NCBI GenBank assembly: GCA_004431415.1
Contig: QPMI01000181.1
Coordinates: 26,299 to 90,298, forward strand
Reading direction: 5' to 3'
Length of the DNA stretch: 64,000 nt
Source of the DNA: Cyanophora paradoxa CCMP329
Lineage: Eukaryota > Plantae > Glaucophyta
A program made the translations under genes and the position numbers. The notes under the pieces are model-generated. The model was not told the DNA's origin, searched no databases, and saw only the letters and a program-made list of their open reading frames with translations. This document shows, piece by piece, positions 1-64,000 of this stretch; positions within the stretch are counted from its first letter, which is position 1; every line of letters starts with the position of its first letter.

Positions 1-1074
1 ACTTCTTCTAATGTGGTTCAAGAATGGACAGCACCTTTAACGGCATCGAATGTAGTTCAAGAGTGGATAGCACCATTGACTGCATCGAATGTAGTTCAGG
101 AATGGATTGGACCTTTAACAGCATCGAATGTGGTTCAAGAGTGGATTGCGCCATTAACTGCATCGAATGTGGTTCAAGAGTGGATAGCACCTTTAACAGC
201 ATCAAATGTGGTTCAGGAATGGATATCAGATTACTTACCTCTCACAGGAGGGACACTGTCAAGTAATCTTACCATCTCGGGTAATCTCAAAGTGTCAAGC
301 AACATTCAATTAGGAACTCATGGGACGGTTTTAGATGTGACTTATGACACACCCTATTATCCTATCACATCCAACACTGACCCTGCATTTACAATTCCGA
401 ATTGTCTTATAGCTGCAAAACCATCTGGCTATGCCCATCTACAAAATGGGCATGGAACAACGATCACCAACCGAGCAACATTGGCTGTTCCATTCATTCC
501 ACAATTTTTTATGACTGGTTCCTCACGGGAATCATACTATAAAATAAATCCATTACTAAATAACCAACTTACTTTGAAAGCATCTGACAACCCCAATTCA
601 TCCATTCATTTGTTTTCAAACAGAAATGATACTGTGGATTGGAGTGAGGGAATAACAATATTTAGTGTGTGTAGTGTGAGGTCACTTACATTGGTCCATG
701 CAGTGTTTGGCGTGTTTAATTATAATGTGCATGAAGTAAGGTATGGCACACACATAGATTGGTTTGTGAACCCACCTGTTTGCAAATGGGGCATGAATAG
801 ATATGTCCATGTTGCTGATGGGGTTAACATGCAATATGGAACACCAACATATAGTAATCTCCCAACTGTCTATATGCCTTATGAGGAATATGCAAATTAC
901 AAATTTGCATACTGGGACACAACCATTACTTCAAACAGCATATCATATTCAATGAATGGGAAGCATTTAGGAACTGTTGCTGGTAACTGGCTTCCACCAT
1001 CATCATTTAATAATTTAGGACCTGCAAATATTGGGGAGAGTTTGCAGAACTACTTGTTTTCAATAGAGCCTTGA
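1..1074 (+). CDS. Fibre/adhesin protein segment 1 (open from window start; 13-aa repeats, YLPLTGGT motif, LamG/concanavalin-like module); continues into the next ORF by a -1 shift
   Basis: Frame open from base 1 (TSSNVVQEW...). The -1 frame at 1035-1070 reads GEFAELLVFNRAL, matching GEYIIFNRAL of the second module. Confidence 0.7.
   Translation, partial: TSSNVVQEWTAPLTASNVVQEWIAPLTASNVVQEWIGPLTASNVVQEWIAPLTASNVVQEWIAPLTASNVVQEWISDYLPLTGGTLSSNLTISGNLKVSSNIQLGTHGTVLDVTYDTPYYPITSNTDPAFTIPNCLIAAKPSGYAHLQNGHGTTITNRATLAVPFIPQFFMTGSSRESYYKINPLLNNQLTLKASDNPNSSIHLFSNRNDTVDWSEGITIFSVCSVRSLTLVHAVFGVFNYNVHEVRYGTHIDWFVNPPVCKWGMNRYVHVADGVNMQYGTPTYSNLPTVYMPYEEYANYKFAYWDTTITSNSISYSMNGKHLGTVAGNWLPPSSFNNLGPANIGESLQNYLFSIEP
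8..228 (+). repeat. 39-bp coding tandem repeat (SNVVQEWIAPLTA), about 5.5 copies
   Basis: Repeated aatgtggttcaagagtggatagcacctttaacagcatc units. Confidence 0.9.
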
Positions 1075-2000
1075 CCGAGATTGAGAAGCAACAGGTGAGG
1101 TATTATATTCAGCAGATGTATGGATTTCCTATAACTCAACCTCTTTACTATCCTGATAATATGCGAATATCAGCAAATTATCTCTATCTAAACAACTTAC
1201 ACATTGGTTCAAATGCTATCATTCCAAACTATACCACATCAAATGTGGTTCAAGGTTGGATACAGAACCACACACCTGCGTGGTCAAATATCACAGATAA
1301 ACCATTAACTTTTGCTCATGATGCTCATTCTCACACAAAGTCAGAGATAACAGATTTCGCCCATTCTCACACAAAGTCAGAGATTACAGATTTTGCACAC
1401 ACCCATTTATGGGCAGATCTCACAGACAAACCGCTCACGTTTACTCCTTCTGCGCACACTCACACAAAATCACAAATAACAGATTTTGCCCATTCTCATA
1501 CGAAGTCAGAGATTACAGATTTTGCACACACCCATTTATGGGCAGATCTCACAGACAAACCGCTCACGTTTACTCCTTCTGCGCACACTCACACAAAGTC
1601 TCAAATTACAGATTTCGCCCATTCTCATACAAAGTCAGAGATAACAGACTTTGCCCACACTCATTTATGGAATGACATCACAGACAAACCATCAACGTTT
1701 GCCCCTTCTGCGCACACTCATGATTACTTGCCTCTCACAGGAGGAACAATTTCCTCAAATCTTACGATTTCATCCAACTTGAATGTTATAGGAAAAATTC
1801 AAATTGGAGACAAAAATACAAACATTGATGTATACTATGACGCACCCTATTATCCTGTTACTTCTAATACAGACCCCGCTTTTGCCATACCAGATTGCCT
1901 CTTAACAATAAGATTAGATGTTGTCCCTGTCGGCATAAACATCAGTCACGCCTTTATTGCAAATAGAGCAACTACGGCAATTCCCTTTATTTCCGGGTAA
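1071..2000 (+). CDS. Fibre protein segment 2 (His-x-His phage-tail-like repeats, second YLPLTGGT module start)
   Basis: HTHTKSQITDFA and HLWADLTDKPLTF repeats. YDAPYYPVTSNTDPAFAIPDCL parallels YDTPYYPITSNTDPAFTIPNCL in segment 1. Confidence 0.7.
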   Translation: MTEIEKQQVRYYIQQMYGFPITQPLYYPDNMRISANYLYLNNLHIGSNAIIPNYTTSNVVQGWIQNHTPAWSNITDKPLTFAHDAHSHTKSEITDFAHSHTKSEITDFAHTHLWADLTDKPLTFTPSAHTHTKSQITDFAHSHTKSEITDFAHTHLWADLTDKPLTFTPSAHTHTKSQITDFAHSHTKSEITDFAHTHLWNDITDKPSTFAPSAHTHDYLPLTGGTISSNLTISSNLNVIGKIQIGDKNTNIDVYYDAPYYPVTSNTDPAFAIPDCLLTIRLDVVPVGINISHAFIANRATTAIPFISG

Positions 2001-2035
2001 CCTTCCCATGGTCAGGATACAACACAATAACTCAA

Positions 2036-3607
2036 TTGAGATCTGATTACAATAACCGAAACATTGCCCAACAACCTACTTATTCATATACAAGCCGGGA
2101 ATTTGGAATGCCGTATCCCGTAACTGTGGATTGGTCAAAAGGTATCACCATCTTCTTTGCAGGTTCTTATAGATTTTGGGGACCGTGGGTAGATCTCTTA
2201 AATTTTAGTTCACCAGATGGAACTAATAAAGTATCCTTTGGGACAACAGGTAGCAGTATGGGTATACATTCTTATACAAGCAATGGTGTGACTTACCCAG
2301 CAGCACACTTAAATTATCCCACATCGTATTCTGAGTTGTCGCCGAATCATTGGGACTTTACAGTTTCTTCAAATGTCTGCACTTTCGGATTTAACGGACA
2401 AGATTTAGGCACAGTCATTACAGAAGTGGATTATCTTCCACCTTCCACTTTTAGTAGGATGGGTGTTGCCTATTTCATTACGGCAGTAGGGGAATATATT
2501 ATATTCAACAGAGCATTGACATTTGATGAAAGGCAAAAAGTGAGATATTATATGCAAGATTATTTTGGCTTTCCAAAAAAGCAAACAATCGTTATTCCTG
2601 ATAATCTACGCATTTCTGCTGAAAATGTTCATATTAGAAATTTAATCGTTTCTTCAAATGCAAGCATTCCAAACTATACCACATCAAATGTGGTTCAAGG
2701 TTGGATACAGAACCACACACCTGCGTGGTCAAATATCACAGACAAACCGTTAACGTTTGCTCCTGATGTTCATACTCACACAAAAGACCAAATATCAGAC
2801 TTTTCCCATTCTCATTTATGGAATGACATCACAGACAAACCGTTAACCTTTGCTCCTGCTGCCCATTCTCATTTATGGAACGACATCACCGATAAACCAT
2901 TAACCTTTGCTCCTGATGCTCATTCTCATGCATGGACAACCATTACAGGTAAACCATTAACCTTTGCTCCTGATGCTCACACTCACACAAAGTCTCAAAT
3001 AACAGACTTCGCCCACAATCATTTATGGGCGGACATCACAGACAAACCGTTAGCGTTCACTCCTACTACTCACACTCACACAAAGTCTCAAATTACTGAT
3101 TTTGCCCACACTCATTTATGGGCGGACATCACAGACAAACCGTTAACATTTGCTCCTGCTGCTCACTCTCATTTATGGGCGGACATCACAGACAAACCAT
3201 TAACATTTGCACCTGCTGCTCATACTCATGATTGGATAGGTATTACAAATAAACCTTTGCTGTTTCCGCCCGATGCTCATACACACCCTTGGAGTAGTAT
3301 AACAGAAAAACCATTAACATTTCCGGCAACAGCTCACACTCATTTATGGAATGATATTACAGACAAACCAACATTTGCAACTGTTGCGACAACCGGAAAT
3401 TATGATGATTTAATTAACAAGCCAACATACACAGCGCCCACAAATTTTGACGCTACAAGTATTATTTCCACAGATCGCACAGGTGATTGGAGAAATTACA
3501 ACGGAGGAATATTGACAGGGGACACAAATACTTGGGCGAACACATGGGCTGCTTCTGATGAAGATTGTAGTAGCTGTAAAATGTATTGGAATGTCCAACA
3601 GGAATGA
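2036..3607 (+). CDS. Fibre protein segment 3 (second lectin-like module, long HxH repeat shaft, FATVATTGNYDDLINKP motif)
   Basis: TVDWSKGITIF and EYIIFNRALT duplicate segment 1. Many HLWxDITDKPLTFAPxAH repeats. Confidence 0.7.
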   Translation: MRSDYNNRNIAQQPTYSYTSREFGMPYPVTVDWSKGITIFFAGSYRFWGPWVDLLNFSSPDGTNKVSFGTTGSSMGIHSYTSNGVTYPAAHLNYPTSYSELSPNHWDFTVSSNVCTFGFNGQDLGTVITEVDYLPPSTFSRMGVAYFITAVGEYIIFNRALTFDERQKVRYYMQDYFGFPKKQTIVIPDNLRISAENVHIRNLIVSSNASIPNYTTSNVVQGWIQNHTPAWSNITDKPLTFAPDVHTHTKDQISDFSHSHLWNDITDKPLTFAPAAHSHLWNDITDKPLTFAPDAHSHAWTTITGKPLTFAPDAHTHTKSQITDFAHNHLWADITDKPLAFTPTTHTHTKSQITDFAHTHLWADITDKPLTFAPAAHSHLWADITDKPLTFAPAAHTHDWIGITNKPLLFPPDAHTHPWSSITEKPLTFPATAHTHLWNDITDKPTFATVATTGNYDDLINKPTYTAPTNFDATSIISTDRTGDWRNYNGGILTGDTNTWANTWAASDEDCSSCKMYWNVQQE

Positions 3608-4581
3608 AATCTTGTTATATCTATTATGCTTGTCATTACAATTGTAGATACTTTGATGTGGTGGGAATTTATCCTCCAACAACTGTGTATACATATTTAC
3701 GAGTAAATGCCTATTCTACTGCAATCGACCCATCAAAGGAATTCAAACAGTATGTTGGAATAAATTGTGAAGGACTAACCAAAGTTGGTGTTCATGGACA
3801 GAAAGGAAGAATTTATTTACCCGGTCCAATTGCTGTTGGATGGAGCAAAAACCCTGCTGTAACTTCACACAGTGGTTACTGTCATTGGGATAATATCTTC
3901 GGAAAACCAACAGCTTCAACATCTGTCGGTCCTCACTCACACAGCAAAGCAGATATCACAGATTTTGCACATACTCACACAAAGGCAAATATTACAGATT
4001 TTGCCCATACTCACACTAAATCAGAAATCTCAGATTTGCCTTCTTTTGATCCATTCACAGCCAATACGATCACAGCAAATAATACTATGTATGTAGGATC
4101 GGGTTCAATAGTAACTCCTGCATCACCCACAAACCAAGAAACATGGTTCTTCCACAATTCCGCAAACTTTTATGATAAAACACTGCTCTGTCGTGGAAAT
4201 GCTTATGCAAGAGCATTTTATGCGATGAATGCAGGAACCACAAACACAATCAGCCAAGTTCCATCTTGGTATGATATAGAAAGACGTTTCAAATCAGGAA
4301 AATATCAAGCCACAAGTGGTGTTATAAGCGCGGGTCAAACAACACAGCATGCATATGTTTTATATTGGGACCCACCTTTTTACACTCAGACACCTGTTGT
4401 AAATGCCACACTTCAAGGAACTCCTGCAACAAACCCAGGGGATGTAGATTTTAGAATTGGAATCTCAAACTCCACAGCTAACTACACAACAATCTATGTG
4501 ACATTCATAGCATCCCCTACTCTATCTGAAAGTCGAAGTATCACATGCACTATCCATTGGACATGTCATGGTATACCATAA
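3586..4581 (+). CDS. Fibre protein segment 4, C-terminal (HxH repeats, putative head domain)
   Basis: Same HTHTKANITDFA repeats. The C-terminus FYTQTPVVNATL...IHWTCHG resembles small beta-sandwich fibre-tip domains (inference). Confidence 0.65.
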   Translation: MECPTGMKSCYIYYACHYNCRYFDVVGIYPPTTVYTYLRVNAYSTAIDPSKEFKQYVGINCEGLTKVGVHGQKGRIYLPGPIAVGWSKNPAVTSHSGYCHWDNIFGKPTASTSVGPHSHSKADITDFAHTHTKANITDFAHTHTKSEISDLPSFDPFTANTITANNTMYVGSGSIVTPASPTNQETWFFHNSANFYDKTLLCRGNAYARAFYAMNAGTTNTISQVPSWYDIERRFKSGKYQATSGVISAGQTTQHAYVLYWDPPFYTQTPVVNATLQGTPATNPGDVDFRIGISNSTANYTTIYVTFIASPTLSESRSITCTIHWTCHGIP

Positions 4582-4630
4582 TTAACTCACAGATCGCTTT
4601 ATTTTTCTAATCTTCTTAGTAAAAGAAGCA

Positions 4631-5476
4631 ATGGGTGAATACAACCGAGTCCAATTACCGGTTTACGCATTGGGTGCGCCCGCAATTCATTTCAGACAAC
4701 ATGAAGTATCCGATGAGATTCGTGGTATGGAATCAACAGAACGCGCAAACTCAGGAAATGCGTTCGATAAAAACAGTGTGATTCGCGTAAAAGAACTACG
4801 AGCCGATAAGAATTCGGGTGTGGTAAAAACAACTCAATTATTGGTTACAAATGCGAATTTTCAATCAGCAAACGGAGAACCCGATGCGTATGGTGTAGAT
4901 ATCAAAGCATTCCAATTCGACAATACGCGAGCCGCCGCCGTTATCCGATCAGGAGGCGCTGTTATTGGTGGTGGATGCCGAGTATCCGGAATGCTTGGCT
5001 CTTCTGCTGCGTTTAACGATATTCCGGACACCTTACCTGAACATGCAGATAATCCCCAACGAATGCGTATGTTTCTTCCATGTGGAGATTCCCCATATGC
5101 TTTTGCTATCATACGAGCAAATGTAAATATAAATGATGCTACCCAACCCCAAGGTATTGACGGACCTTGGAAAATGGCTGATCAACTTTTACCGAAAGCG
5201 ATTTACTCCATGTGTCGCTCTCAGAATGGAGGTGTAGAAGGATATACATTCATTGTTCAAGCGGTAGGTCATGGAGGGCGTGGATGGGTTATAAGAAATC
5301 CTGCAACACAACCCAACACTTTTGATTTTTGGGCATCTGAGGTTGGAGGTTATGATATTATGATTTATGGATATCGTAATGATGAGGCGGCATGGGCTGT
5401 TGCTAACTGCATAAATCCCGATGCTCAACTATCGAATTTCTATAATGAACCATACCCCGAAGATCCCGTCCCATAA
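4631..5476 (+). CDS. 281-aa viral structural/fibre-associated protein (paralog A)
   Basis: Intact ORF. SGGAVIGGGCRVSG fibre-type motif; C-terminal LPKAIYSMC...VQAVGHGGRGW...YDIMIYGYRND resembles a C-terminal domain common on viral fibre proteins. Confidence 0.75.
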   Translation: MGEYNRVQLPVYALGAPAIHFRQHEVSDEIRGMESTERANSGNAFDKNSVIRVKELRADKNSGVVKTTQLLVTNANFQSANGEPDAYGVDIKAFQFDNTRAAAVIRSGGAVIGGGCRVSGMLGSSAAFNDIPDTLPEHADNPQRMRMFLPCGDSPYAFAIIRANVNINDATQPQGIDGPWKMADQLLPKAIYSMCRSQNGGVEGYTFIVQAVGHGGRGWVIRNPATQPNTFDFWASEVGGYDIMIYGYRNDEAAWAVANCINPDAQLSNFYNEPYPEDPVP

Positions 5477-5495
5477 TTATGTTTCGATATATTAA

Positions 5496-6339
5496 ATGGC
5501 TGCACCTGCACCACCTGAACGCATCTTAACTGCGCAACTATCGTTAGCTGCGCCCGCAAACCACGTATTACAGCATGCTATTATCGATAATATCGATGGT
5601 CTCGAATCCACAGAAATCGCACCAACTCTCAATACCTTCGGTGATACTCATATGCTGAGACTGAGAGAGTTGCGATGTGACACCAACAGTGGAGTGGTGA
5701 AAACAACGAGACTTCTTGTAACAAATGCGAACTTCAACGCTCATTATGGAGATCCCGACAGTTACAATGATGATAATAAGGTTACCAACTTTGCTTACGA
5801 AGCAAGAAGGGCGCAATTAAATGTAGATCCGGAGGCGCTTATATTGGGGACGGACTAAGAGTTGGTGGTATCATTGGAGCGCCTCTAATCGTAAATGACC
5901 AACCCAATCCTGATGATGAAAACACGAGAATTAGAACGTATTGCCCGGGTATGAATGAACCTTACATTATTAAAATAAACACGATTATAATAAACCTGCA
6001 AACTGCCGTAATTGACATAATAGAACCGCTGGGAAACCATTACAGATATACCGAAAAGCTACCTGCGGATATTTATGCATTATGTAGGAGAACCGATGTA
6101 GCAAGACCACGTATTACAGTTCAAGTAGTCCCCGTCGATAATTTTGGTCTTGCTTTCCATTCATTGCCTCTTTTGGATACGCAAGATGATGAATATATAA
6201 TTAGGGCAACACAACAAGGAACATTCACGGTTATTATGTATGCCGAAAGAAACGATGCAATCGCAAGAGGAAACCGCTATGGTCAATATCTAACCACAAA
6301 TCTCTATAATCCATCGGCGGTAGCGATCCGCTACCATAA
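5496..6339 (+). CDS. Paralog B of the 281-aa protein, with two single-base frameshifts (~5825, ~6324)
   Basis: RELRCDTNSGVVKTTRLLVTNANF matches KELRADKNSGVVKTTQLLVTNANF. The shifted frames give RSGGAYIGDGLRVGG and the end DPLP* (paralog A ends DPVP*). The repaired length is 846 nt, identical to paralog A. Confidence 0.72.
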
Positions 6340-6360
6340 ATCTACGGTATATATAGAGGA

Positions 6361-6633
6361 ATGGATGAAAAAACAAGGAGATTTATTGAGTCTGCGATAA
6401 TGGTTCATGGACTTGATAAGTTTGATTACACCGAAACTGTCTATAAAAAGGCGCAAGAGAAGGTATCTGTGAGATGCCTGCAATGTAATAAAGTCTTTCA
6501 GACTTATGGATTTAACCATATAAAGGGGTCAGGATGTAGACAGTGTTCTAAGAAACACTCTCATGCATACAGAAAAAAGACTACATGGGGAATCGTAATA
6601 GAAGAGAAACCGATTATGTTATATTTTGATTAG
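6361..6633 (+). CDS. Stand-alone zinc-ribbon protein (DUF723-like module usually attached to homing endonucleases)
   Basis: FIESAIMVHGLDKFDYTETVY...KVSVRCLQC...F...NHIKGSGCRQC follows the HGxKYDYSKVxY...C..C...NH..G.GC..C pattern. Confidence 0.7.
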   Translation: MDEKTRRFIESAIMVHGLDKFDYTETVYKKAQEKVSVRCLQCNKVFQTYGFNHIKGSGCRQCSKKHSHAYRKKTTWGIVIEEKPIMLYFD

Positions 6634-6779
6634 AGTTTCGAAAGAGAAATGAGCATCTTTCCGCATTTACCTTTGGTTATTATGCAAGTATCAAAGCAAT
6701 TCGGACATGTCTTATGATAATGGAGCATTATGATATCGACCAACTCATACGGAAATACTTTCGCTAAGATGGTTCGCAT
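6630..6779 (-). CDS. 49-aa Cys-containing mini-protein (below the ORF-track cutoff)
   Basis: ATG at 6779 to TAA at 6630 gives MRTILAKVFPYELVDIIMLHYHKTCPNCFDTCIITKGKCGKMLISLSKL. It fills the gap, and its stop overlaps the stop of the convergent ORF. Confidence 0.5.
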   Translation of the reverse strand: MRTILAKVFPYELVDIIMLHYHKTCPNCFDTCIITKGKCGKMLISLSKL

Positions 6780-6819
6780 CCTACCAATTTCGTTTTTTAT
6801 TTTTCTATATAATTCATAA

Positions 6820-7218
6820 ATGAATCATCGCGGTTCCCATGTAATGTTAGATTACAAGTTCAATCATCCATTGATGGTGGGATTGGAAAACTTGGAGACC
6901 ACAACAACGTGGTTAATGCAATTTTTACAATCTATTATACAAGAGCAAGGTATCCGAGTTGTTCACAAGCATTGCGAGATTTTCGATGGTGGTGTTTCGC
7001 CACCGGGTTTTGCGATGGTATTACTTCTTGATGAGAGCCATTGCACCGCTCATTGTTACTCTGACCAAGGAATGTTAGCGATTGATGTATTCACTTGCGG
7101 AACCGAAGCGCAAAGTAAGACCTCCGTAATATCTAAATTGATAGATGAGAGAATAACAGAGATCTTTTCAGGGTTGGAGAAAGCGGAGAAGCAGATAGCA
7201 GCGCGATTTCCGAGTTAA
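6820..7218 (+). CDS. speD: Prokaryotic-type (short, class 1) S-adenosylmethionine decarboxylase proenzyme homolog
   Basis: N-terminal GxH..LD, PxG...LLLDESH (autocleavage Ser giving the pyruvoyl group), H in TAHCY, and AIDVFTCG. The 132-aa length is typical of SpeD/SpeH. Confidence 0.85.
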   Translation: MNHRGSHVMLDYKFNHPLMVGLENLETTTTWLMQFLQSIIQEQGIRVVHKHCEIFDGGVSPPGFAMVLLLDESHCTAHCYSDQGMLAIDVFTCGTEAQSKTSVISKLIDERITEIFSGLEKAEKQIAARFPS

Positions 7219-7266
7219 TCACACTGAGATTTTGAAGAAATATAACATGTCTTATTGAATATCGTC

Positions 7267-7541
7267 AGGTGTAACAGGTGTAACAGGTAAATCCCAAACT
7301 TCGCTCCTAGGGAGGCCAAAAACCCAAAACTTTGGGATTTACCTGTTACACCTGTTACACCTTGGGATTCACCTGTTACATCTATCAAACAAAGCATTAA
7401 TATATTCGATTCCTTACATTGATTATAGTGTCATGTAACAGGTGTAACAGGTGTTTCCCAAACTTTCCTCATAGGAGATGAAAAATCCAAAACTTTGGGA
7501 TTTACCTGTTACACCCGTTACACCTTGGGATTCACCTGTTA
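7267..7541. repeat. Two copies of an iteron-containing inverted-repeat unit (TGTAACAGG/CCTGTTACA); origin-like
   Basis: Perfect 32-bp inverted repeat 7267-7298/7331-7362 with a 32-nt loop; degenerate second copy at ~7434-7541. Confidence 0.85.
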
Positions 7542-7550
7542 CACATTGAT

Positions 7551-8335
7551 TATCGACTGTTTAATTGGACATGTTACACTTGAAACACAATTTTGATACA
7601 GTAAAAAACAGAATCCAATCTTATCAATTGTTTAATTGGACATAATGCAACTCTGGGGTCATTTTTGATACAGTAAAAATCTCAACCGAATCTCATCGAT
7701 TGTTTAATTGGACATAATGCAGTAACCATCTCTTCCAACAAAATACGCCGCAATCTCATCAATTGTTTAATTGGACATAATGCAGTAACCATCTCTTCCA
7801 ACAAAATACGCCGCAATCTCATCGATTGTTTAATTGGACATAATGCAGTAACCATCTCTTCCAACAAAATACGCCGCAATCTCATCGATTGTTTAATTGG
7901 ACATAAGGCAGTAACCATCTAATCCAACAAAATACGCCGCAATCTCAACGATTGTTTAATTGGACATAATGCAGTAAGGAGTGAATTATTTTCATCCGAT
8001 ATTTCATCGATTGTTTAATTGGACATAATGCAGTAACGAGTGAATTATTTTCATCCGATATCTCATCGATTGTTTAATTGGACATAATGCAGTAACAAGT
8101 GAATTATTTTCAACCGATATATCATCGATTGTTTAATTGGACATAATGCAGTAACCATCTCTTCCAACAAAATACGCTGCAATCTCATCGATTGTTCAAT
8201 TGGACATAATGCAGTAACGAGTGAATTATTTTCAACCGATATATCATCGATTGTTTAATTGGACATAATGCAGTAACGAGTGAATTATTTTCAACCGATA
8301 TTTCATCGATTGTTCAATTGGACATAATGCAACTC
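7551..8335. repeat. 13-copy array of a conserved core (catcgattgtttaattggacataatgcagtaac) with three recurring linker types
   Basis: The TGTTTAATTGGACA core starts at 7558, 7629, 7701, 7764, 7827, 7890, 7953, 8012, 8071, 8130, 8193, 8252 and 8311. Periods are 71,72,63,63,63,63,59,59,59,63,59,59. Confidence 0.92.
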
Positions 8336-8380
8336 TGTGTGAATTTTTGCGATTTCCGATAGAATGGGCGGTGGACTACT

Positions 8381-8628
8381 TCAATCGTGATTATATCAAT
8401 CGTGATTATATCATAAATTTATGTTCCTTCAATCGAGATTATATCAAATTTGCATAAAATACATATTAATCGCGTTTATATCAATAAATTAATCGATATT
8501 ATATCAATTGTTTAATCGAGATTATTAAAATTTAATATAAAAATACATATTTATCGATTAATTTATACATATTTATTAACATGAAAATACATATTTATCG
8601 ATTAATTATACAAATTTATTTAAGAAAA
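8381..8628. repeat. Very AT-rich sub-terminal stretch with repeated AATCGNGATT-like palindromes
   Basis: tcaatcgtgattata x2, aatcgagattat variants, aaaatacatatttatcgattaatt x2. Confidence 0.75.
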
Positions 8629-8713
8629 ACACATAAAGAAATACAAATTTAAATCCAGGAGCGAAGCGCGAAGCGCGTAGCGGAGGGATTTAAATTTGTA
8701 TTTCTTTATGTGT
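8629..8713. other. Terminal stem-loop: perfect 28-bp inverted repeat with a GC-rich loop
   Basis: acacataaagaaatacaaatttaaatcc (8629-8656) is the reverse complement of 8686-8713. The loop contains GCGAAGC GCGAAGC GCGTAGC. Confidence 0.92.
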
Positions 8714-9496
8714 AACCCAATTCGTTAACCAAACTCGAAACTCAAGAAGTTATTACAGAGTGCGCATTCGCATGCGCTAGCGCTGCAGCTAATATTTATT
8801 GTCCGGCGACAATGCAAATACTCACCTTCAACTGGCCGGCGGCAGGTGCGACTCTGACGGGAGACCTGTCAAGGAGGAGAAGCGGCTTGTAAACGAGCTG
8901 TACATCAAATCGAACAATCTTGCCGTCCTCGTCATCGCAGAGTCCGCGGCGCTGGTCCTCCTGCTTGCTGTGAATAATTTTTGGGTGAATCCATCGCTGA
9001 ACGCGAGGGAATCTGGGATTTCAAATGCGCTGGCCGGCAAGAATAAAGAAGCAATCATGATATACAAAGGCGAGATATGCAGTCTCCTTGCCTCAAATGG
9101 TTCGTTACCAGCCGGCTGATGTTAATAATCGCGTGCTTAATTTTCATGGTAGACGAGGTTCGCGATGAGTTGGCTTCGGAATTTACGCGTCTCAAGATAC
9201 AGACGGCAATGAAATACAAGGATGAATATCGAGTGTACGAGATCGCCAACTGTCCTCTCCATATGCGTGGCAATATGCACAACGGCAAGATCAAGCCATC
9301 CTCATCGATCGCACCGGTCGACGTTGAAGGTGCCGGAACATATGCAAGGCTACCCCCAGCCCCGGCCATCATAGACAGTAACTACAACGCGTTCGCGTAT
9401 GGTGACCCATCGATCGCGAAGAACGTCCGGCATCGCCCTCATGTTAGTGGACCCTCTGCAAATCCTGACCAGCTGCAGCCTCATCATGACGAATAG
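8714..9496 (+). pseudogene. 3' part of a spliced gene of unknown function, apparently truncated by the viral element
   Basis: Putative exons 8714-8759, 8846-8941, 9008-9069 and 9153-9496 join in one frame (PNSLTKLETQEVITE CDSDGRPVKEEKRLV...IAE ESGISN...YK DEVRDEL...HHDE*) using host-style donors gtgcgc/gtccgc/gcgaga. Confidence 0.45.
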
Positions 9497-9708
9497 ACCA
9501 ACGGTAGTACTAGTTCGAGTTCAGTGTATTCCTGCACACCTGCATGCACACAATCGACGATCTTCTAGGACGACCATCAATTTTGTTGTTCCTGCAGATA
9601 TGTGCTCGCAGCCTCGTGAGCTGTAGCGCTTCTAGATCTGATGTAAATCGACTCGCGATCAGCTATTGCAACTTGTGGATGTGTGTGTGTTGTTTGTTGG
9701 GTAAAGGA

Positions 9709-9732
9709 TGTGTGTGTGTGTGTGTGTGTGTG
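9709..9732. repeat. (TG)12 microsatellite
   Basis: Direct reading. Confidence 0.9.
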
Positions 9733-9855
9733 GTGTGGTGGGGGTTCAGTGCAAGAGTTCTAAGTGCGTTCGATCCGCTGTCGACGTCGACATGGTTCAA
9801 CTCACTTCACACGTACACGCCCCCTGGCCCAGGCCCCCCCGAGCCCCCCCCGCCC

Positions 9856-12800
9856 CTACTCCTGGGAGAGGACCTGGGTGATGGCGCGGACGACGGGCGA
9901 GGCGGCGACGTCGGTGCGCGGCTCGGCGAGCTTGCGCTCCAGCAGCTCGTCCACCAACGCCCGCAGCTCCCGCGCCAGCACCGCCACCCGCGCCGGCGCG
10001 TGGAACTCGATCTGCAGCGCGACGGGCTCAGCAACCGGTACGAGATGGATTTTAGGAGGTTTAAGATTTTAGTTCAGGGGCCTATCGTTTCCAGATTACG
10101 AGACGCGGGTGGGTGGGAGTGGGGCCGCTCGCGTCGCACCCAGCCGTCGACGGCGACGACGGCGCGCTGGTGGTCGACGGAGATGGGGCCCCCGAAGAGC
10201 AGCAGCGCGAACGGCGACACCTGCACCGGCGAGATGTCAGGAGGGAGGAGGAGGCGGCCGCGGCGGTGCAGGTGGCGGGGCCATGCAGCGGTGCCGGCCG
10301 CGGGAGCTCTTTTTTTTGGGGGTGGGGGGGGGTGGGGGGTGGGCGGGGGGGGACCATGGAGGAATCGCGGATGAAGACCTTGTTCGTCTTGACCTGCGCG
10401 CCTGCATCAGCGAACGAAGAGGGGGCACGAGGGGGAGGGGGGGGGTTAGGGTCGCGCGCCTTCTCGAGGAAGACGAGCCAGCGGGACTCGAAGTCGGTCG
10501 AGGCGAAGTTGACCGAGCCCGGGTGCAGGTGCACCCGCCCTGCCGGCGCGCGGGGAGCGGCGGCGTCAGGCTCGAGCCGGGCCGCAAGGAGCCGGGGGCG
10601 GCGGGCGGGCGGGTCGAGGGCGGCGGGCGGGCGGGCGGGGCGGACCGTCGTGCTTGGTGGAGTGGGTGATCTCCCGCGCCTTGTGGTCCTTCGCCATGCT
10701 GCCCCCGCCGTCTCCGCGTACTGCGGGGGGGGGGGGGGGGGGGGGGGGGGGCAGGGGTTAGACGGCGGGGAGCGAATGGGCGGGGCGGATAATTGCGGTC
10801 TCTTCAGTCCACGCACAGGGCGGACCCCTCGCAGGATTCTAGCAAGCAAATGCACGGGGCGGATGGAGGGAGGGAGGGGGCGGGCCGGGGAGGGGCGGGG
10901 GGCGGGGGGCGGGGGGGAGGGGGGAGCGGACCTTTGTCTCGGGGAGCTCGACGGAGACGACGTTGGGGTAGAGCCCCGCCGCCAGCACCGCCCGCACCTG
11001 CGCGGCCCGGCGGTGGTCGGACCCGGGGCGGGGGGAGGGGGGGGGGGGGGCGGCGGGCGGGGGGGCGAGAAGGGGGGGGGGGGGGCGGGGCCCCGGGCCG
11101 TCTCTAGGGCCTCTTGGGAAATGTCGTGAAAGCTTAGGTCATCTTTTTCTCTAGATCACGTCAGATCTCTAGGCCGCGTTTGAATTCTCGCAACGAGGCC
11201 GTCGCTTGGGCCATTTTCAACAAAGGGTTTCTTGGCGGCGGGCGAGCGCGGGGCCGGGCCCGCACCAGCTTCACGTTCTTCGCCTGCGCGTTCGCCCGCG
11301 CGCCCTTGGCCTCTGCGCGCCCGGCCCCGCCCCGTGAGCCGGTCATCGGCGGTGTAAAGAAGCCTGGAAAGCCCGGGGCGCCCAGCGAGTCTAGGGCGCC
11401 CAGGCTTCTTCTCGAGCGAGACAGAGAGGCGCCGGTTCGGGAAGCCTGGAAAGCCCACGGCGCCCGGGCGCGCGAAGGAGTGGCTTCGGGGGCGCACCGA
11501 AGCCGATGTCGCGGAGGAGGTCGGCGAACTGGTGCCGCAGGTCGCTCATCGTCCGAAGCGTCTGCCGCGACAGGAAGTGCTGCGCCGCCGGCCGCGCGAG
11601 AGGCGAGACGAGTCAGGCCGAGCGCGTCGACCGGGAAGCACGCGGAATGGTTCGAGGCGTTCTAGCGCGCAAGCTAGGCTAGGTAGGCCATGCGGTTGGC
11701 GCCGGCCCGGCCCCAGCCAACTCCGAGTCCGCCCTCGTCTAGCTAATGGCTAATGCTAATGTGCCTATATATGCTAATGGCTTGTGGCTATATATGCCAA
11801 GCAAGTAACGCGAGCGACCTCGTTGCAGTAGGCGTCGTCGCGGCCCTGGGAGCGGGCGTCGAGCCAGCCGTTGTAGGCCCGCAGCGTCGTCAGGTGGTCC
11901 GAGCGCCCCACCGCCATCCCACGCTTCGCCTTGTTCGCCTGAGGGCGACGGGGAGGGCGGGCGGGATGAGATGAGGGGCAAGCGGTGAGATAAGAGCTTT
12001 GGTAAGAGCGAGCTAGGAAGCCTAAGATGTTTCTAGGAAGCTAGGAAGCTTGAATCGAAGCGGAAGGCAGCTGGACTCCTGCAGCTGCAGCTCGCAGCCG
12101 GGGCTCTCGATCCATCGGGCGCGGGCGCGGGGGGCACCTCGTCGCGCTTCTCGAGGGGGGCGACGAAGGGGGAGCGGGAGGAGAGCCCCGCCGCGATCGT
12201 CAGGATCGGGTCCACGCACCTGCCGGGGCCGGGGCGACGGCGTCAGATAGGGAAGGAGCACAGCGGAGGAAAGCGCAGGGGGCGGGCGGGCGGACTGGAA
12301 GACGGCTTAGCTAATAATTAAGACTCTGAACTTAGTTTATAGTTACGATTATGAACTCTTCGAGCAGGTAAAGCAGCGAGCAAATCAAAGCAAAGCGGGC
12401 GGACTGGAACACGGAGGCGAGGAGGAAGGACGGGAGGAGTAAAGGATCTATCTATCTAAATATCTGCTATGATGAAAGGATCTATCTATCTATCCATCCG
12501 AACTCTATTATTATGAACTCTTAGAGCGGATAAGCAAGCGGAGGGGGCGGTTTGGAAGATCTCCCTCTATGGTAAAGCGGGCGGACTCTATCTTGTTCGT
12601 AAAGGACCTCCCTATAAAGGGGGCGGGCGGGCGGAGGGGCGGGCGGACTGGAGGACGGAGGCGAGGAGGAAGGACGGGAGGAGTAAAGGATCTATCTATC
12701 TATCTATCTCTTTATCCAGCCTCCGGTCTGGAAAGTCTCTTTATCCATCTCTTTATCTTAAGCAAAGCAAAGCAAAGCAAAGGGGGCGGACTGGAAGACG

Positions 12801-15176
12801 GAGGCGAGGAAGGACGGAAGGAATGAAGGATGTTTTTTTTTATCTCTATCATAAAGGATCTATTGTTATTAATCTATCGGGCTGGGTCTCTATCTCTATT
12901 ATAAAGGATCTCCTTGTAAGGAAAGGAAGGTGCGGGCGGGCGGACTGGAAGACGGAGGCGAGGAGGAGCATCTTGCCGACGCGCACGTCCACCGGCAGCG
13001 ACGCCAGGTGCCGCCCCAGCGGCGTCGCGCCCCCCTCCCTGCGCGGAGGCGCGTGAGAGGGGGGAGGCCGCAGGAGGCCCGGCGCTAGTGCGAGGGGCGG
13101 CCCTGCGTCCAACGTCTATGTCCCTCTTTCGATCTAGTGCCTCGCTGTTCTGGTCTGTCTGTCTCGGGCCGCGGCGCACGCGTTGAGGGCGCCGATCTCC
13201 TTGAGGACCATCACCGCCGCCTCCACCTGCCGCCCCCGTCGCCAAGAGCGGGAGGGGGGGGAGAAAGAGGGGGGTGCGCCGGCGGCGCGCCTGCTCGCGG
13301 GGCGGGGGCTGCAGGGCCTCCCCAAGGAAGGCCTGCGGGTCCCCGTACCCCAGCACCTGCGCGGGGGCGAGGGGAGGGCCGAATCAGCGATGCCGGCCAG
13401 CCTCTCTGTCTACCCGAAGTCACGGACCTCGATTTGGAGGCAGAGCTGCTCGAGGGGCACGCGGAGCATCTCGGGCAGCTGCTGCTCCGCCATCGCCTCG
13501 TGCCGCCGCCGCGTGAAGAGCCGGAAGCAGCGCCCCGGCCGCACGCGCCCCGCCCGGCCCCGCCGCTGCTTCGCCGACGCCTGCGGGCAGGGGCGGTCAG
13601 CCCCGTCCGTCTGGTATGGCACGGCTCTCGTGGGGGATCGTCCAAGGCGCGCCTTGGAGACCCACGTCTCGACGAGGGCCGTCAGCCGCGTCGCCGCGTC
13701 GTACTGCCCCCCGCCCGCCCGGTCAGAAGATGGAGGAGACGGAGGAGAGTGAGGAGGGCGGGGCGCCTGATTCTCTCCTAGCTATAGGTTCTCCTAGTTT
13801 CTCTAGGAACCGAGGAGGGCGGGTAGGGAGGGGCGGGGTACCTGGTTCTCCTTGACGCGGCCGGCGTCGACGACGTACACGCAGTCGTCCACCGTGATCG
13901 ACCTGCCGCCCCGGCCCCGCCCCGCCTCTCAGCATCGGCCTCGGCCTCGGCTTCAAGGTATCCAGTCTCTACTGATTCGCTTGAGCTTCTAGTGCGCCCG
14001 GCCCTCCGCCGCCCCGCCCGGCCCCCTGCCGCCGCTCCCTAGACGATTTGCGATGGCTCATGTGGTCCACGCACGTCTCGGCGATGTTGGTGGCGATGAC
14101 GACCTTGCGCGTGTTCGGCGGCGCCCGCTCGAAGATCCGCTTCTGGTCCGAGCTGCGCCCCGCCGCCCTCAGCCGCGCGGCGACCGCCGCTTTGAAGGCG
14201 GGAGGGCGCGGACCTGGCGAGGGTGGAGTGGAGGGGCAGGAGGAGGAGACCCCGCACGCCCCGCAGCCGCTCGTGCACCGCCTGAAGCGAGGCGGGAGGG
14301 TTAGGGGGCGGAGGAGGCGGCTCTACAGGCGCTCTCTCTGCACGTGGAGAGGGGTACCTGGATCTCCTGGATGCCCGGGAGGAAGATCAGGATGGCCCCC
14401 TCGCTTTCCTCGGTGTGGATCTGGGGAAGGGGGATACAGGGTCAGAAACCTGTTTAGGAGAAGTGGGGGGAGGGGGGGGAGGGGGGGGGGGGGGGTCGGC
14501 ACCTTCATGACGAGAGCCTCGACGAGGTCGTAATTGATCTGGGTAAGGGGGTACGGAATCGGTGAGCAGAGGGGTACACCCGCGCGTAGGGGGGACGCGC
14601 GGCTCCCGCTCGCCTGCTCCTCGTTGTCGGAGAGGGTCACGAGGGCCTTGACCGTCCGCTCGCTGTACCCCTGCGCAACAAAGAGAAAAGGTGAGCTCAG
14701 GTGAGTTCAGGTGAGGGGGTACGGGGTTTTCGGACCTTGTACTGGGCGGACGCCTCGGCGAGCTCGTCGAAGGACGTCGCCTCCTCGGCCGCCGCGGGCC
14801 CGTCGCCGCCGCCGGCCGCCGCCGCGGCAGCGGCCGCCGCCGCGCGGCTCTGGTTGCGCTTGCGCGAGGGGCGCCACTCCAGCGCGTAGCTGGAGCAAAG
14901 GTATCAGACCCAGATGGACACGGAAAGAGCAAGCCGAATGGAAGGCGGGGCGAGTGCTCTCCCTTCCATCTATTCGCTATTTATCTCCTTGACTTTGCTA
15001 TTTATCTATCCAGAAGGAAGCCGGGGCGGGGGGCGCGGCGCACCCGTCGCAGAACTCGAGGGTGTCCTCCAGGAAGTACTCCTTGACGGGGTGCGTGAAC
15101 CCCGGGATGTCCACCGCCGGGCACCTGAGAACAGAGGATGAGATGAGACAGATGAGGCGGGCGGGCGGGCGGGCGG

Positions 15177-15207
<31 letters not shown>

Positions 15208-18200
15208 CGGGCGGGCGGGGCGCGCCCGGCGAAGTAGTTGGAGAAGAGGTGCGCGTTGATGGTCGCCGACATGAGCACCACCTGCCCGAAGAAGGCGCTC
15301 GCTCGGGCTGGATCTATGTCGGGTTTGGGGTGGGGGCGGGCGTGCCTTGAGGTCGGGGCGGGCGGGGAGGAGGCGCTTGAGGATGACGAGGAGGAAGTCG
15401 CTGTCCAGCGACCGCTCGTGCACCTGCCCCCCGGCCGCTCGGCTCAGAAGAAGATGCTAGAAGATGCAAGCAAGCTAGAGAGTCGAGGGGGCCCGAGCAA
15501 CAAGGGCCCGCGCCCTCTCCGCTTCGACTTCTAGTTCGGCTGCAAGCCAGCTAGAAGACGCAAGACGCAGGCTAGCTAGAGAGCTGAGCTTGGCTCGCTC
15601 GCCTCGTCGATGAGGAGGTGGGTGCAGCGGGCGAGGCGGGGGTCGGACTGGAGCTTGCGGAGGAGGACGCCCGTCGTCGCGAAGAGCAGCCGCGTCTCCC
15701 GCGACGCCACCGACTCCAGCCGCACCTGCGGGGGGCGCGGGCGGGCGTCAGGAGAGGGAGAAAAGAGGTCAGGCGCCGGGGTCATGGCCGAGGGGCCGCC
15801 ATCCATCAATCATAGCTAGATCCCGCCCCCATGGCCGAGGGGCCGCCGATTTGATAGCTTAGGTCCAGGGTTCATTCCCGAGGGGCCGCCATCAAGAATA
15901 GAACAGAAGGACCCGAGGCCCGGGGGGCGGACCTGGTAGCCGACGGTGGCGCCGGCCTTCTCGCCCCGCTCGTACGCGACACGCTCCGCCACGCCTGCGA
16001 CGGGAGACCGGGTCGCATCGCACCGGGGGGTACGGGGGGGGAGGGGGGGGGGAAGCGGGGCGCGGGGCCGAGTGCCGTCCCAGAAGGCCCCTCGAGCCCC
16101 CAGCAGGGGCTCGGGGGGATGCAAATAGACGGGTACTTCAAACTCCCCCGGCTCCCTCCCTGCCCGCCCCCTCGCGGCGCGGGGCGGGGCGGGGCGCGTG
16201 TCGGACCGATGGCGGAGATGCGGCGGGGCTGGGTGCAGACGATGGAGCAGTACTCGCCGGCCTCCAGCGCCGCCTCCAGGATGAACTGGGGGACCTGCGG
16301 GGGGTAGAGGGGGGGCGAAGGTGAGCGCGGAGAAGAAGAGGAGGAGGCGTCGCTAGGCTAGGCCGGGCTTCGCAGGCGTGCGGCGCCTAGCCTCGAGGGC
16401 GGGCGGGCGGGGCGGGGCGGGGGGGACCTGGGTTGACTTGCCGCAGCCCGTCTCGCCCCGCACCAGCACAACCTGCGCGCCCAAGGGCAAGGGCTCAGGG
16501 AGGGAGGGAGCGCCGCCAACAACACCAGCGAGAGCTTAGGATGAGAAGGCGGCCTCCAAGCAGCCAGGACAGGCGGGGCGGGGCGGGGCGGGGCGGTTTC
16601 AAAGGGCGGGGCGGGGGCACCTGGTTGGAGGCGACGGCGGCGAGGACCTGCGAGCGGAAGGAGGCGGCGGGGAGGCGGCCCCGCGCCGCCGCCACCCGCG
16701 ACCCCTCCCCGGACTCCGCCCTGCCCGGGCCGAGCGCGCGGCCGGTTAGAGGGAAGGCGCGGCTCGCTTTGGCCTGATCCTTAGCTAGCTTCGGCTCGAA
16801 AGGGGCGTAATCTCTACCTCGTTCTTAGCTTTCCGGTTGTCGTTGCTTTCTTCTTCAGCTTAGCTTCTTCTTTAGGATTGTAACCTCTGGAACTGGAGGG
16901 GCGGGCGGGGGCGCACCAGGCCTTGGCGGCCGCCCGCAGGCGCGCGAGGTGCGCGGGGTCCTCCGCCGCGTGCGGCGGCCGCGCCGGCGGGCCCCGCCCG
17001 CCCGCCGGCCCCCTCCGGCCCCGGGCTTGTCAGCGCCCCGGTACACAGTTGAGCCGCTGCGAGGGGCGAGGTCGATAAGGCGCCCGTTCCTACGGCCTTA
17101 AAACAAGGCAGACGAAGCCCAGCGGACCTGCTGACGCTCGCCGTGTCGTCGGCCGGCGGTGGCGGGGCCGGCGGCGCCGCTGCGGGTGCCGGCGCGGCCT
17201 GCGGCGCCGCTTCGACCGCGGCCGCCGGGCTATCCAGCTCCTCCCACGACTCCGAGGCGCCCTCCTGTAGCACAGGCGGCGCCGGGGGCTTCGGCACGTC
17301 CGCCTTGAGCGATCCGGCAGGCGCGGCCGGGGCAGCCGAAGGGGCCGCCGGCCCCTCCTCCGCCGCCGCCTTGCCGCCCTTGGCGCCGCCCTTGCCGCCG
17401 GCCTTGCCGCCGCCGGCGCCGGCGCCGCCCTTGCCGCGGCCCTTTGCGGCGGCGCGGGCGAGGGAGGCCTTGTGCGCCGCCACTGCGCATGCCGCCCCGG
17501 CGCGAGTCAGATGAACGAAGACTCGCCCACACACGCTTGCGAGAGCGGTCTACAAGCGGCCCAGGCGCAGCCTCAGCCCAGCCTCCCTGCGGCGGACCTG
17601 CGGCGGCGGGGTCGTTGCCCGCGGCGACGGCGGCGGCCGCGACGGCCTCCTCCTCCGCCGCCGCCCGCTTCTTCGCCTCCTCCTCCTCCGCCCGCTGCGC
17701 GCCCGAACCCGTCAGGCCGAGCCGAGCCGAGGCGGACTCGAGGCCTTCGCGGGAAGGAAGCCAAGCCCTTCACCGGCTTAGGCTCCCAGGCTAGCGCCCT
17801 AGGGCTCGCCCGTCTCTCAGGGTAGGCCGCGGACCGCCTCTCGAGACACATCGAAAAGGCTAGCCTGCTTGCTTGGACCTTCCCCAGCTCCGCGGGGCGG
17901 GGGGCGGACTCGGGGGCCGTGGCGGCGGACCTGCTGCTCCTTGAAGCGGATGTTGCGGCGGATCTCCTCCGACGTCTCCGCGTCCACCTCCAGCGTCACG
18001 CACCTGCAAGAGGGAAGAGGAACTAGTTAAGAGGCGCTGGTGGGGAGGCAGAGCTCGAACGAGCTTTGGAGCTTCGAAGAGGCCGCTTTAAAGAACTTTA
18101 GGTCTTTAAAGAGCTTTGGAGCTTCAGGGAGGGAAGGAGGACGAGGGAAGAAGAGCTAGTCAGAGGGGCAACGAGGCAGAGCTTTAAAGAGCTTTAGAGC

Positions 18201-63943: not shown

Positions 63944-64000
63944 GGATAATCGAGGCGCACGCTTATTGTATCACGAAACGTTTGTGCGTGCTCTCCGCCT

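What the first reader, a model, noticed from the sequence alone, without database searches (positions are those of the whole stretch)
1..8713. Endogenous virus end: fibre genes, a SAM decarboxylase and an elaborately structured terminus inside a GC-rich eukaryote
Seen: an AT-rich, intron-free gene block with viral fibre motifs abuts GC-rich, intron-dense host DNA through 1.45 kb of ordered repeats. Known: Polinton-like viruses and virophages integrate in protist genomes and stand out by low GC. Inference: this is the right end of such an element. The combination of AdoMetDC, iteron cruciforms, a 13-copy array and a triple mini-hairpin end is not one I recognise from described families.
Basis: partly seen in the sequence, partly recalled or inferred. 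Interest (0 to 1): 0.8.

Follow-up and report, generated by a model that had tools for sequence, protein, structure and literature searches.

The report
Hairpin-capped end of algal provirus
This is one end of a multi-copy, virus-like DNA element joined to the chromosome of a likely glaucophyte alga, most likely a polinton-like virus, and its closing 85-base palindrome is predicted to fold back to cap and prime the freed virus genome; the element type, its decarboxylase gene and palindromic ends have each been reported before.

Summary
Positions 1-8713 are a 39% GC block beside 67% GC intron-rich host DNA. The block ends in two palindromic blocks, a 13-copy array and an 85-nt palindrome (28-bp perfect arms, three tandem GCGNAGC). 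Public contigs of 4 of 4 DNA runs join this end to single-copy flank, with 28-30 element bases (short of the tool's 31), and show the element at roughly 4-14 times flank depth. The apparent gene fragments are likely sequencing frameshifts: there is one fibre gene of at least 1,525 aa and two 281-aa paralogues. The host is likely Cyanophora paradoxa. A published table finds AdoMetDC in 66 of 156 of its endogenous viral elements (integrase rve in 85), and palindromic ends are described for Halocafeteria PLVs and virophages. This scan noted similar hairpin-ended PLVs on other DNA of the same genome. Capsid, ATPase, polymerase, integrase and the left end lie outside the window, so family membership is unproven. 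Sister ends keep perfect arms despite 4-7 substitutions and always the same tip orientation, which favours a 3'-strand fold-back cap over flip-flop telomeres. Verdict: new member of a known kind.

The parts
1..4581 (+). Giant modular fibre gene, 5' end outside the window (at least about 1,525 aa): N-terminal 13-aa repeats, two copies of a roughly 300-aa module ending in a LamG-like motif (label recalled, no Pfam hit), three His-rich phage-tail-repeat tracts, C-terminal H-lectin/gp53-like head. Three single-base breaks near 1033, 1994 and 3594.
   Evidence: Four stop-free pieces in successive -1 frames; public contigs carry one extra base at 1994 and 3594 and one gap in the 372-1063 contig in 4 of 4 runs; PHROG/PF12789; Atlas head hit 0.91, H_lectin in 10% of that cluster
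4631..5476 (+). 281-aa protein, paralogue 1; likely virion-associated (conserved N-terminal module that is fused to a C1q head in two relatives)
   Evidence: Five hits among 1.84 billion representatives, one of them a repeat-rich chance-like hit; P0122 and P0123 carry PF00386; fold prediction failed, pLDDT 36
5496..6339 (+). 281-aa paralogue 2, split in the window by single-base breaks near 5808 and 6310
   Evidence: Read with X at the breaks: 281 aa, 35% identical to paralogue 1, 54% over 267 aa to intact P0121; extra base at both places in 4 of 4 runs
6361..6633 (+). 90-aa zinc-finger protein resembling the zinc-binding parts of HNH-type endonucleases; no nuclease domain seen
   Evidence: PF14311 E 2e-4 below cut-off; phrog_4605 E 7e-11, phrog_681 and phrog_559
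6820..7218 (+). Class 1b (prokaryote-type) S-adenosylmethionine decarboxylase homologue, intact; last gene before the terminus
   Evidence: PF02675; ESH and DVFTCG aligned with 2iii and 1tlu proenzymes; closest loci with context are giant-virus contigs L003-L005
7267..7383 (.). Palindromic block 1: 35-bp arms holding iterated TGTWACA units, plus a third partial arm
   Evidence: (z -9.6)
7434..7544 (.). Palindromic block 2, a diverged duplicate of block 1
   Evidence: z -4.5
7552..8331 (.). 13-copy array, period 59-72 bp; every copy keeps a 14-bp dyad TGTnnAATTnnACA, likely a dimeric-protein binding site
   Evidence: 13 of 13 copies, 0 matches in the other 55 kb
8379..8628 (.). Very AT-rich subterminal short repeats with ATCGAT-type dyads; 8528-8561 is shared with sister ends
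8629..8713 (+). Terminal 85-nt palindrome: 28-bp perfect arms; element boundary at 8713
   Evidence: flank contigs begin at 8684/8686; sister ends stop at the equivalent base
8657..8685 (+). Purine-rich tip with three tandem GCGNAGC mini-hairpin sequences on the strand whose 3' end is at the boundary
   Evidence: mini-hairpin properties from PMC13037366
8714..9700 (.). Single-copy flank, 50% GC, no Pfam hit in two ORFs tested
9859..15785 (-). 3' part of a host DEAH-box RNA helicase gene (DHX57/36/29 group), many short introns
   Evidence: EukProt model P0134 maps in order in 17 pieces, up to 100% identity; PDB hits DHX29/DHX36

Best explanation
The block is the right end of a multi-copy virus-like element joined to host DNA at position 8713, most likely a polinton-like virus inserted by a retroviral-type (rve) integrase, whose terminal palindrome is predicted to fold back on the 3'-ending strand once the genome is freed. 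Shown: the boundary, the repeats, the multi-copy state, the perfect arms, one tip orientation in all ends seen, intact fibre, paralogue and AdoMetDC genes. Inferred: the 28-bp stem with its G.A and mini-hairpin tip protects the 3' end from exonucleases and primes DNA synthesis without a terminal protein; the iterated palindromic blocks and the 13 dyads bind the element's own replication or integration proteins; the fibre and paralogue pair are virion attachment proteins; AdoMetDC boosts polyamine supply during virus production and belongs to a gene pool shared with algal giant viruses.
For: Junction contigs in 4 of 4 DNA runs with 0 differences over about 990 bases, breaking within 2 bases of 8713 as a graph branch would. 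Unique element contigs at 7.5-13.8 times flank depth over 1661-6343 and 3.7-5.9 times over 372-1063, with 0-1 differences over up to 1,273 bases. Two sister ends with 4 and 7 arm substitutions end at the equivalent base, have other flanks and, judged from loose-end strings of different contigs, the same changes in both arms. Tip orientation is the same in this end and both sisters, and no inverted-tip joint is listed. Published: 66 of 156 glaucophyte elements carry AdoMet_dc, 85 rve, 0 tyrosine recombinase, 139 A32 ATPase (PMC12220804 Table S6; columns matched by counting); PTR-PTR-H_lectin fibre in a C. paradoxa PLV; terminal palindromes go with non-pPolB replication and rve integrases, with a fold-back priming model; GCGNAGC hairpins melt at 70-76 C, resist exonuclease and bind SSB poorly.
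Against: No capsid, ATPase, polymerase or integrase gene is in the window and no relative with context was found (viral contigs; metagenomes), so PLV identity rests on association. The junction contigs carry only 28-30 element bases, under the tool's 31-base rule, and were not returned (depth 0 over 8724-9670 in X1 and X9; the tool warns that a filter drops records). No long reads were seen. No left end, so no terminal inverted repeat or target-site duplication was tested. Standard folding gives the tip alone no special stability (z -0.7); the model lacks sheared G.A terms. Table S6 gives counts, not co-occurrence, and 49 of the 156 elements have pPolB. Contig depth is not a copy number.
Confidence: 0.62

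Rival explanations
1. The free genome has covalently closed hairpin ends; the 85-nt palindrome is the unfolded print of that telomere, opened at the outer base of the stem, joined to the host by its 3' end and filled in by host repair.
For: Explains perfect arms with paired changes and a mismatch-rich tip in one fixed orientation in one step.
Against: Closed-end replicons known to me (poxvirus, recalled) resolve to both orientations; no resolvase or protelomerase in the window; no paper among 4 listed appears from its title to describe closed ends for PLVs.
Confidence: 0.18
2. The end belongs to a mriyavirus-like dwarf relative of giant viruses, which earlier notes place in dozens of copies in this genome, replicating by rolling circle.
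For: C1q/TNF-headed proteins with variable N-termini occur in yaraviruses. The AdoMetDC's nearest contexts are giant viruses.
Against: No look-alike of 4500-7250, 7250-8720 or 8440-8720 among the scan's windows. Mriyaviruses lack integrase genes and have direct terminal repeats in several contigs. The lines shown for those notes mention no palindromic end.
Confidence: 0.12
3. A capsid-less satellite or transposon-like derivative that borrows PLV ends and is mobilised in trans.
Against: A fibre gene of more than 1,500 codons and two intact paralogues are kept without stops, which fits a virion-forming element.
Confidence: 0.06
4. Chimeric assembly with a contaminating phage or virus.
For: Junction contigs fall 1-3 bases short of the 31-base rule and were absent.
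Against: Same junction in 4 of 4 runs from three different years; sister ends joined to other non-element flanks; no phage match.
Confidence: 0.02

Closest known systems
Endogenous PLV-type elements of Cyanophora paradoxa (PMC12220804 main text passages and Table S6; PMC10120064 Tables S1, S2, S4)
   Same: Likely same host; AdoMetDC in 66 of 156; phage-tail-repeat fibre with H-lectin head; 366 capsid hits show a large resident population
   Different: Termini, arrays and the role of AdoMetDC are not discussed in the passages found (0 hits for hairpin, palindrom, decarboxylase in the main text); which capsid group this end belongs to is unknown
Palindrome-ended endogenous virophages (subtypes 1, 2, 5, 6) and PLV subtype 4 of Halocafeteria seosinensis (10.64898/2026.07.28.741278)
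   Same: Palindrome at the very end of a low-GC integrated element; fold-back priming model; LamG and HNH accessory genes
   Different: 52-nt example versus 85 nt here; no mini-hairpin tip, fixed orientation or subterminal array in the passages read; stramenopile host
Class 1b AdoMetDC of algal giant viruses (Heterosigma akashiwo virus 01, Yellowstone Lake phycodnavirus 2; PMC9992855)
   Same: Small prokaryote-type pyruvoyl enzyme in a eukaryotic virus; nearest homologues with context sit beside NCLDV capsid, Erv1, RNase III and D5 genes (46-51% identity)
   Different: No spermidine synthase beside it in the window; tree placement next to the giant-virus clade is unresolved; substrate untested, and some homologues act on arginine or ornithine
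Parvovirus and poxvirus hairpin telomeres (recalled; cited as analogy in the Halocafeteria preprint)
   Same: Long stem with a mismatched or branched tip at the genome end
   Different: No flip/flop pair seen; the element is integrated with the palindrome open on both strands
GCGNAGC mini-hairpins of phage G4 origin, RSF1010 ssiA and N4 promoters (PMC13037366)
   Same: Same 7-nt motif, on one strand only
   Different: Three in tandem at a eukaryotic virus end; no protein partner known

Membership tests
Polinton-like virus | Double-jelly-roll major capsid and minor capsid genes | not testable with these tools
Polinton-like virus | A32-like packaging ATPase | not testable with these tools
   Not among the ORFs of 1-8713
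Polinton-like virus | rve integrase or tyrosine recombinase; pPolB or primase-helicase | not testable with these tools
   Not in the window
Polinton-like virus | Terminal inverted repeats, target-site duplication, 14-40 kb size | not testable with these tools
   Left end missing; no second copy in the other 55 kb
Polinton-like virus | Integrated, low-GC, intron-free, multi-copy | tested here: met
   typical rather than defining
Polinton-like virus | Long modular phage-like fibre (tail repeats, lectin head) | tested here: met
   same domain pair reported in a C. paradoxa PLV; Pfam hits are below cut-off
Palindrome-ended PLVs/virophages | Palindrome at the outermost bases of the element | tested here: met
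   for the right end only
Mriyaviricetes | HUH endonuclease, VLTF2, VLTF3, NCLDV-type capsid | not testable with these tools
   None in the window
Virophage (Maveriviricetes) | Virophage capsid, penton, ATPase and protease | not testable with these tools
   None in the window; Table S6 lists 0 virophage capsids among the 156 'PLV and mixed' glaucophyte elements
Tailed phage contaminant | Close phage homologues, no host junction | tested here: not met
   0 matches in 50,697 phage records for two proteins; host junction
Flip/flop hairpin telomeres (AAV, poxvirus type) | Both tip orientations present | tested here: not met
   3 of 3 end types share one orientation; contig 8569-8658 runs two bases into the tip unbroken in X1 and X9; no inverted-tip joint listed. 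Contigs can drop rare forms.
Class 1b AdoMetDC | About 130 aa, ES self-cleavage site, downstream His and Cys | tested here: met
Class 1b AdoMetDC | Activity on S-adenosylmethionine rather than arginine or ornithine | not testable with these tools
   Needs an assay; substrate switches are documented

The most novel reading that the evidence does not exclude
A family of glaucophyte PLVs has covalently closed or self-priming hairpin telomeres whose tip is a built-in triple mini-hairpin, opened and joined to the host by an rve integrase in one fixed orientation, with a subterminal 13-site protein array: a protein-primer-free end chemistry joining giant-virus-like telomeres to retrovirus-like integration, in an element that also carries a giant-virus-type polyamine enzyme in tens of copies.
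Probability: 0.2. Interest if true: 0.7.

Novelty: new member of a known kind. Interest (0 to 1): 0.36.

Why it matters
How PLVs without a protein-primed polymerase copy and protect their ends is open; the Halocafeteria preprint calls for tests. This end gives a concrete, synthesizable 85-nt substrate, sister variants that keep the arms while changing letters, and a culturable alga with apparently recent, near-identical copies. The AdoMetDC, so far only a column in a supplement, is a candidate metabolic gene shared between PLVs and algal giant viruses. The gain is detail on a known kind of element, not a new kind.

Tried and rejected
No whole genome is held, so the element could not be extended leftward. 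Related-locus scans of viral contigs gave only two tailed-phage loci for AdoMetDC (42-45% over about 45 aa) and nothing for the AdoMetDC alignment, the paralogue pair or the tip pattern. The array motif had 0 matches in metagenome contigs. None of 8 window proteins is in the 15-billion collection by exact sequence. Both structure predictions failed (pLDDT 36 and 38), so no fold search was run. The Atlas gave only leads under 0.9 for paralogue 1. Pfam found nothing for the fibre's internal module or head, even at E 10. Rfam: 0 matches in 6600-9800. Expression: no RNA holder listed; two RNA-guess runs laid on 8430-9670 gave 2 and 1 contigs, which says nothing on element transcription. The AdoMetDC tree (128 rows, quick method, careful search unfinished) leaves the window protein in an open fork with the 16-row clade holding the three giant-virus loci and an 85-row clade holding two archaeal-context loci; no donor is claimed. 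A transcription-end hairpin rule for all genes was considered: no perfect inverted repeat of 9 bp or more follows the other genes, so it is not supported, though blocks 1-2 could still end the AdoMetDC transcript. Pseudogene decay was rejected as the main reading of the frameshifts because public contigs carry the extra base; decay of this one copy is not excluded, since contigs drop rare variants. Literature searches: decarboxylase + polinton: 0 main texts; Cyanophora + mriyavirus: 0. Supplements of the two bioRxiv preprints were not seen and may describe such ends or genes.
Full report
Observation. The first 8,713 bases are 38.9% GC; 8714-9700 is 49.9% and the rest 67.1%. All genes in the block are on the + strand without introns. 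After the last gene come two palindromic blocks (7267-7383, 7434-7544) built of iterated TGTWACA units, a 13-copy array (7552-8331, period 59-72), AT-rich short repeats, and an 85-nt palindrome at 8629-8713. The palindrome has 28-bp perfect arms, cannot be extended outward, and has a 29-nt purine-rich tip with GCGNAGC at 8661, 8668 and 8675. It folds with z -12.9 (0 of 200 shuffles); three tandem GCGNAGC arose in 0 of 2000 shuffles, one in 103. All 13 array units keep the dyad TGTnnAATTnnACA, which occurs nowhere else in the window.

Is the junction real? Of 24 runs listed, 14 hold half or more of the words of 4500-10000. In the 4 DNA runs laid on 1-10300, one contig per run starts at 8684 or 8686 and runs to 9675 without a difference; in three of the four the same contig continues into the host helicase gene. 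That is 28-30 element bases, just under the tool's 31-base rule, but it is where a 31-mer graph must branch if many copies share the end. Against this: when I laid two of the same runs on 8430-9670 these contigs were not returned (depth 0 over 8724-9670; the tool warns that a filter drops records), and no long reads were available. One search adds two sister ends, in runs X15 and X19, that stop at the base equivalent to 8713 and continue into different non-element DNA. A chimera is unlikely.

Copy state. Listed unique contigs of the element lie at 7.5-13.8 times flank depth over 1661-6343 and 3.7-5.9 times over 372-1063, with 0-1 differences over as much as 1,273 bases, which suggests about ten near-identical, recently spread copies. 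Single contigs carrying a variant AdoMetDC lie at about 36, 39 and 55 times flank depth in three runs (my division values). The tool warns that depth is not a copy number; I use it for order of magnitude only.

Genes. All four runs carry one extra base, in homopolymer runs, at 1994, 3594, 5808 and 6310, and a one-base gap in the contig covering the break near 1033. Each frame shift is -1. Read with X at the breaks, 1-4581 is one stop-free fibre gene of about 1,525 codons with its start outside the window, and 5496-6339 is a 281-aa paralogue of 4631-5476 (also 281 aa; 35% identical) that matches the intact metagenomic protein P0121 at 54% over 267 aa. The fibre has a duplicated internal module, His-rich repeats hitting phage tail families and a head whose best Atlas hit (0.91) is a cluster with H_lectin in 10% of members, further hits H_lectin and Gp53-like; this is a lead, as the fold prediction failed. 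The paralogue pair's N-terminal module is fused to C1q in P0122 and P0123, which hints at virion attachment proteins. The decarboxylase is a class 1b AdoMetDC with the cleavage motif and catalytic-region residues aligned to solved proenzymes. Of 80 metagenome loci returned (of 156 confirmed), the top three (46-51% identity) are giant-virus-type contigs: L003 has an NCLDV capsid, Erv1, RNase III, D5-type helicase and capping enzyme, L004 has Erv1, RNase III and D5 (L005 shows the same neighbours by sequence, not scanned). The next two are archaeal-type loci. The quick tree does not resolve which clade is sister. Algal giant viruses encode working class 1b enzymes, and some phage homologues have switched to arginine or ornithine (PMC9992855, passages).

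Host. Earlier notes on this genome name Cyanophora paradoxa. I checked this: a EukProt gene model maps in order in 17 pieces onto the helicase exons at 9859-15785, its name follows the gene-name format quoted for that species, and 67% GC with many short introns fits the published 67.6% GC and 9.2 introns per gene (PMC6704402, passages).

What is known. PMC10120064 lists 366 capsid hits for C. paradoxa (supplement rows). PMC12220804 reports a fibre of two phage-tail repeats fused to H_lectin in a C. paradoxa PLV (passage), and its Table S6 counts, among 156 glaucophyte elements, AdoMet_dc in 66 (42%), A32 ATPase in 139, rve in 85, pPolB in 49 and tyrosine recombinase in 0 (I matched columns by counting; the table gives no co-occurrence). 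So AdoMetDC is a common cargo of these elements, though the main text has no hit for 'decarboxylase'. The Halocafeteria preprint (passages and section 7) finds palindromes at the ends of four virophage subtypes and one PLV subtype, linked to non-pPolB replication and rve integrases, and proposes fold-back priming. Viral genes in C. paradoxa are methylated and clustered (PMC12344493, passages). I also read passages of PMC11253617, 10.64898/2026.06.19.733378 and PMC13037366. Earlier notes of this scan describe 28-kb PLVs with 75- and 95-nt G.A-tipped palindromic ends and stacked iteron blocks on other pieces of the same genome; they are unchecked, and no look-alike of this end was indexed.

Mechanism. 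One search shows one sister end with 7 substitutions in the outer 18 arm positions and another with 4; the inner-arm strings from other contigs carry the same changes, so the arms appear to change together. Contig geometry puts the first sister at 85 nt and the second at about 95 nt, which matches the length in two earlier notes and is my main link to a 28-kb PLV. In this end and both sisters the purine tip lies on the strand whose 3' end meets the host, and no inverted form is listed, so flip/flop resolution is not supported. G.A pairs and GCGNAGC mini-hairpins can form only on that strand; such hairpins melt at 70-76 C, resist exonuclease and bind SSB poorly. Standard folding does not capture this (tip z -0.7). 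I therefore favour a 3' fold-back cap that primes synthesis in the freed genome (inferred), with integration through the same 3' ends by rve (inferred from the host's element census). A covalently closed telomere opened at integration fits the same data and is the main rival. The palindromic blocks and the dyad array are most simply binding sites for replication or integration proteins (inferred; untested).

Verdict. A real, integrated, probably recently mobile element end; most likely a PLV of a population already catalogued in this host; end palindromes and the AdoMetDC are in print as a preprint model and a supplement column. The triple mini-hairpin tip, fixed orientation and 13-dyad array were not found in the papers searched. 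Membership is unproven because the core genes and left end are outside the window. Interest 0.36.

Noticed in passing
window 5493-5498 and 6817-6822: The second paralogue and AdoMetDC both start in a TAAATG context preceded by TATATA-like sequence, recalling poxvirus late promoters (recalled). TAAATG occurs 7 times on this strand in 8.7 kb, so the signal is weak.
   Followed up: partly
window 7267-8713: The palindromic blocks (TGT-W-ACA), the array dyad (TGT-N8-ACA) and the very end (ACACA...TGTGT) all use TGT/ACA half-sites; TAAATCC occurs both in the blocks and in the terminal arm.
   Followed up: partly
window 8187-8207 and 8305-8325: The only variant of the array dyad (2 of 13 copies) makes it more symmetric.
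   Followed up: no
window 8714-9700: Single-copy flank of 50% GC between the element and the helicase 3' end, with ORFs lacking Pfam hits; could be an eroded insert or an unusual host gene.
   Followed up: partly
window 372-1063 versus 1661-6343: The first fibre module lies at about half the depth of the rest, and contigs join fibre segments in other orders, suggesting module shuffling among copies.
   Followed up: no
L003:9998-11599, L004:3656-5284, L005:1223-2830: GC-rich (57-62%) giant-virus contigs with a conserved AdoMetDC - Erv1 - RNase III - D5 helicase order.
   Followed up: partly
run X15, record 9: A run guessed to be RNA holds a 790-nt contig spanning a sister element end and GC-rich flank; DNA carry-over or read-through transcription cannot be told apart.
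   Followed up: no
run X19, record 11: A run labelled as a second organism holds a sister end at low depth (2.4).
   Followed up: no
window 35200-37400 (+), 28700-31500 (-), 32300-33800 (+), 62800-64000: From ORF text only: ankyrin-repeat gene, RNA methyltransferase-like gene, glutaredoxin-like gene and F-box-like gene; ordinary host genes, labels recalled and not tested.
   Followed up: no
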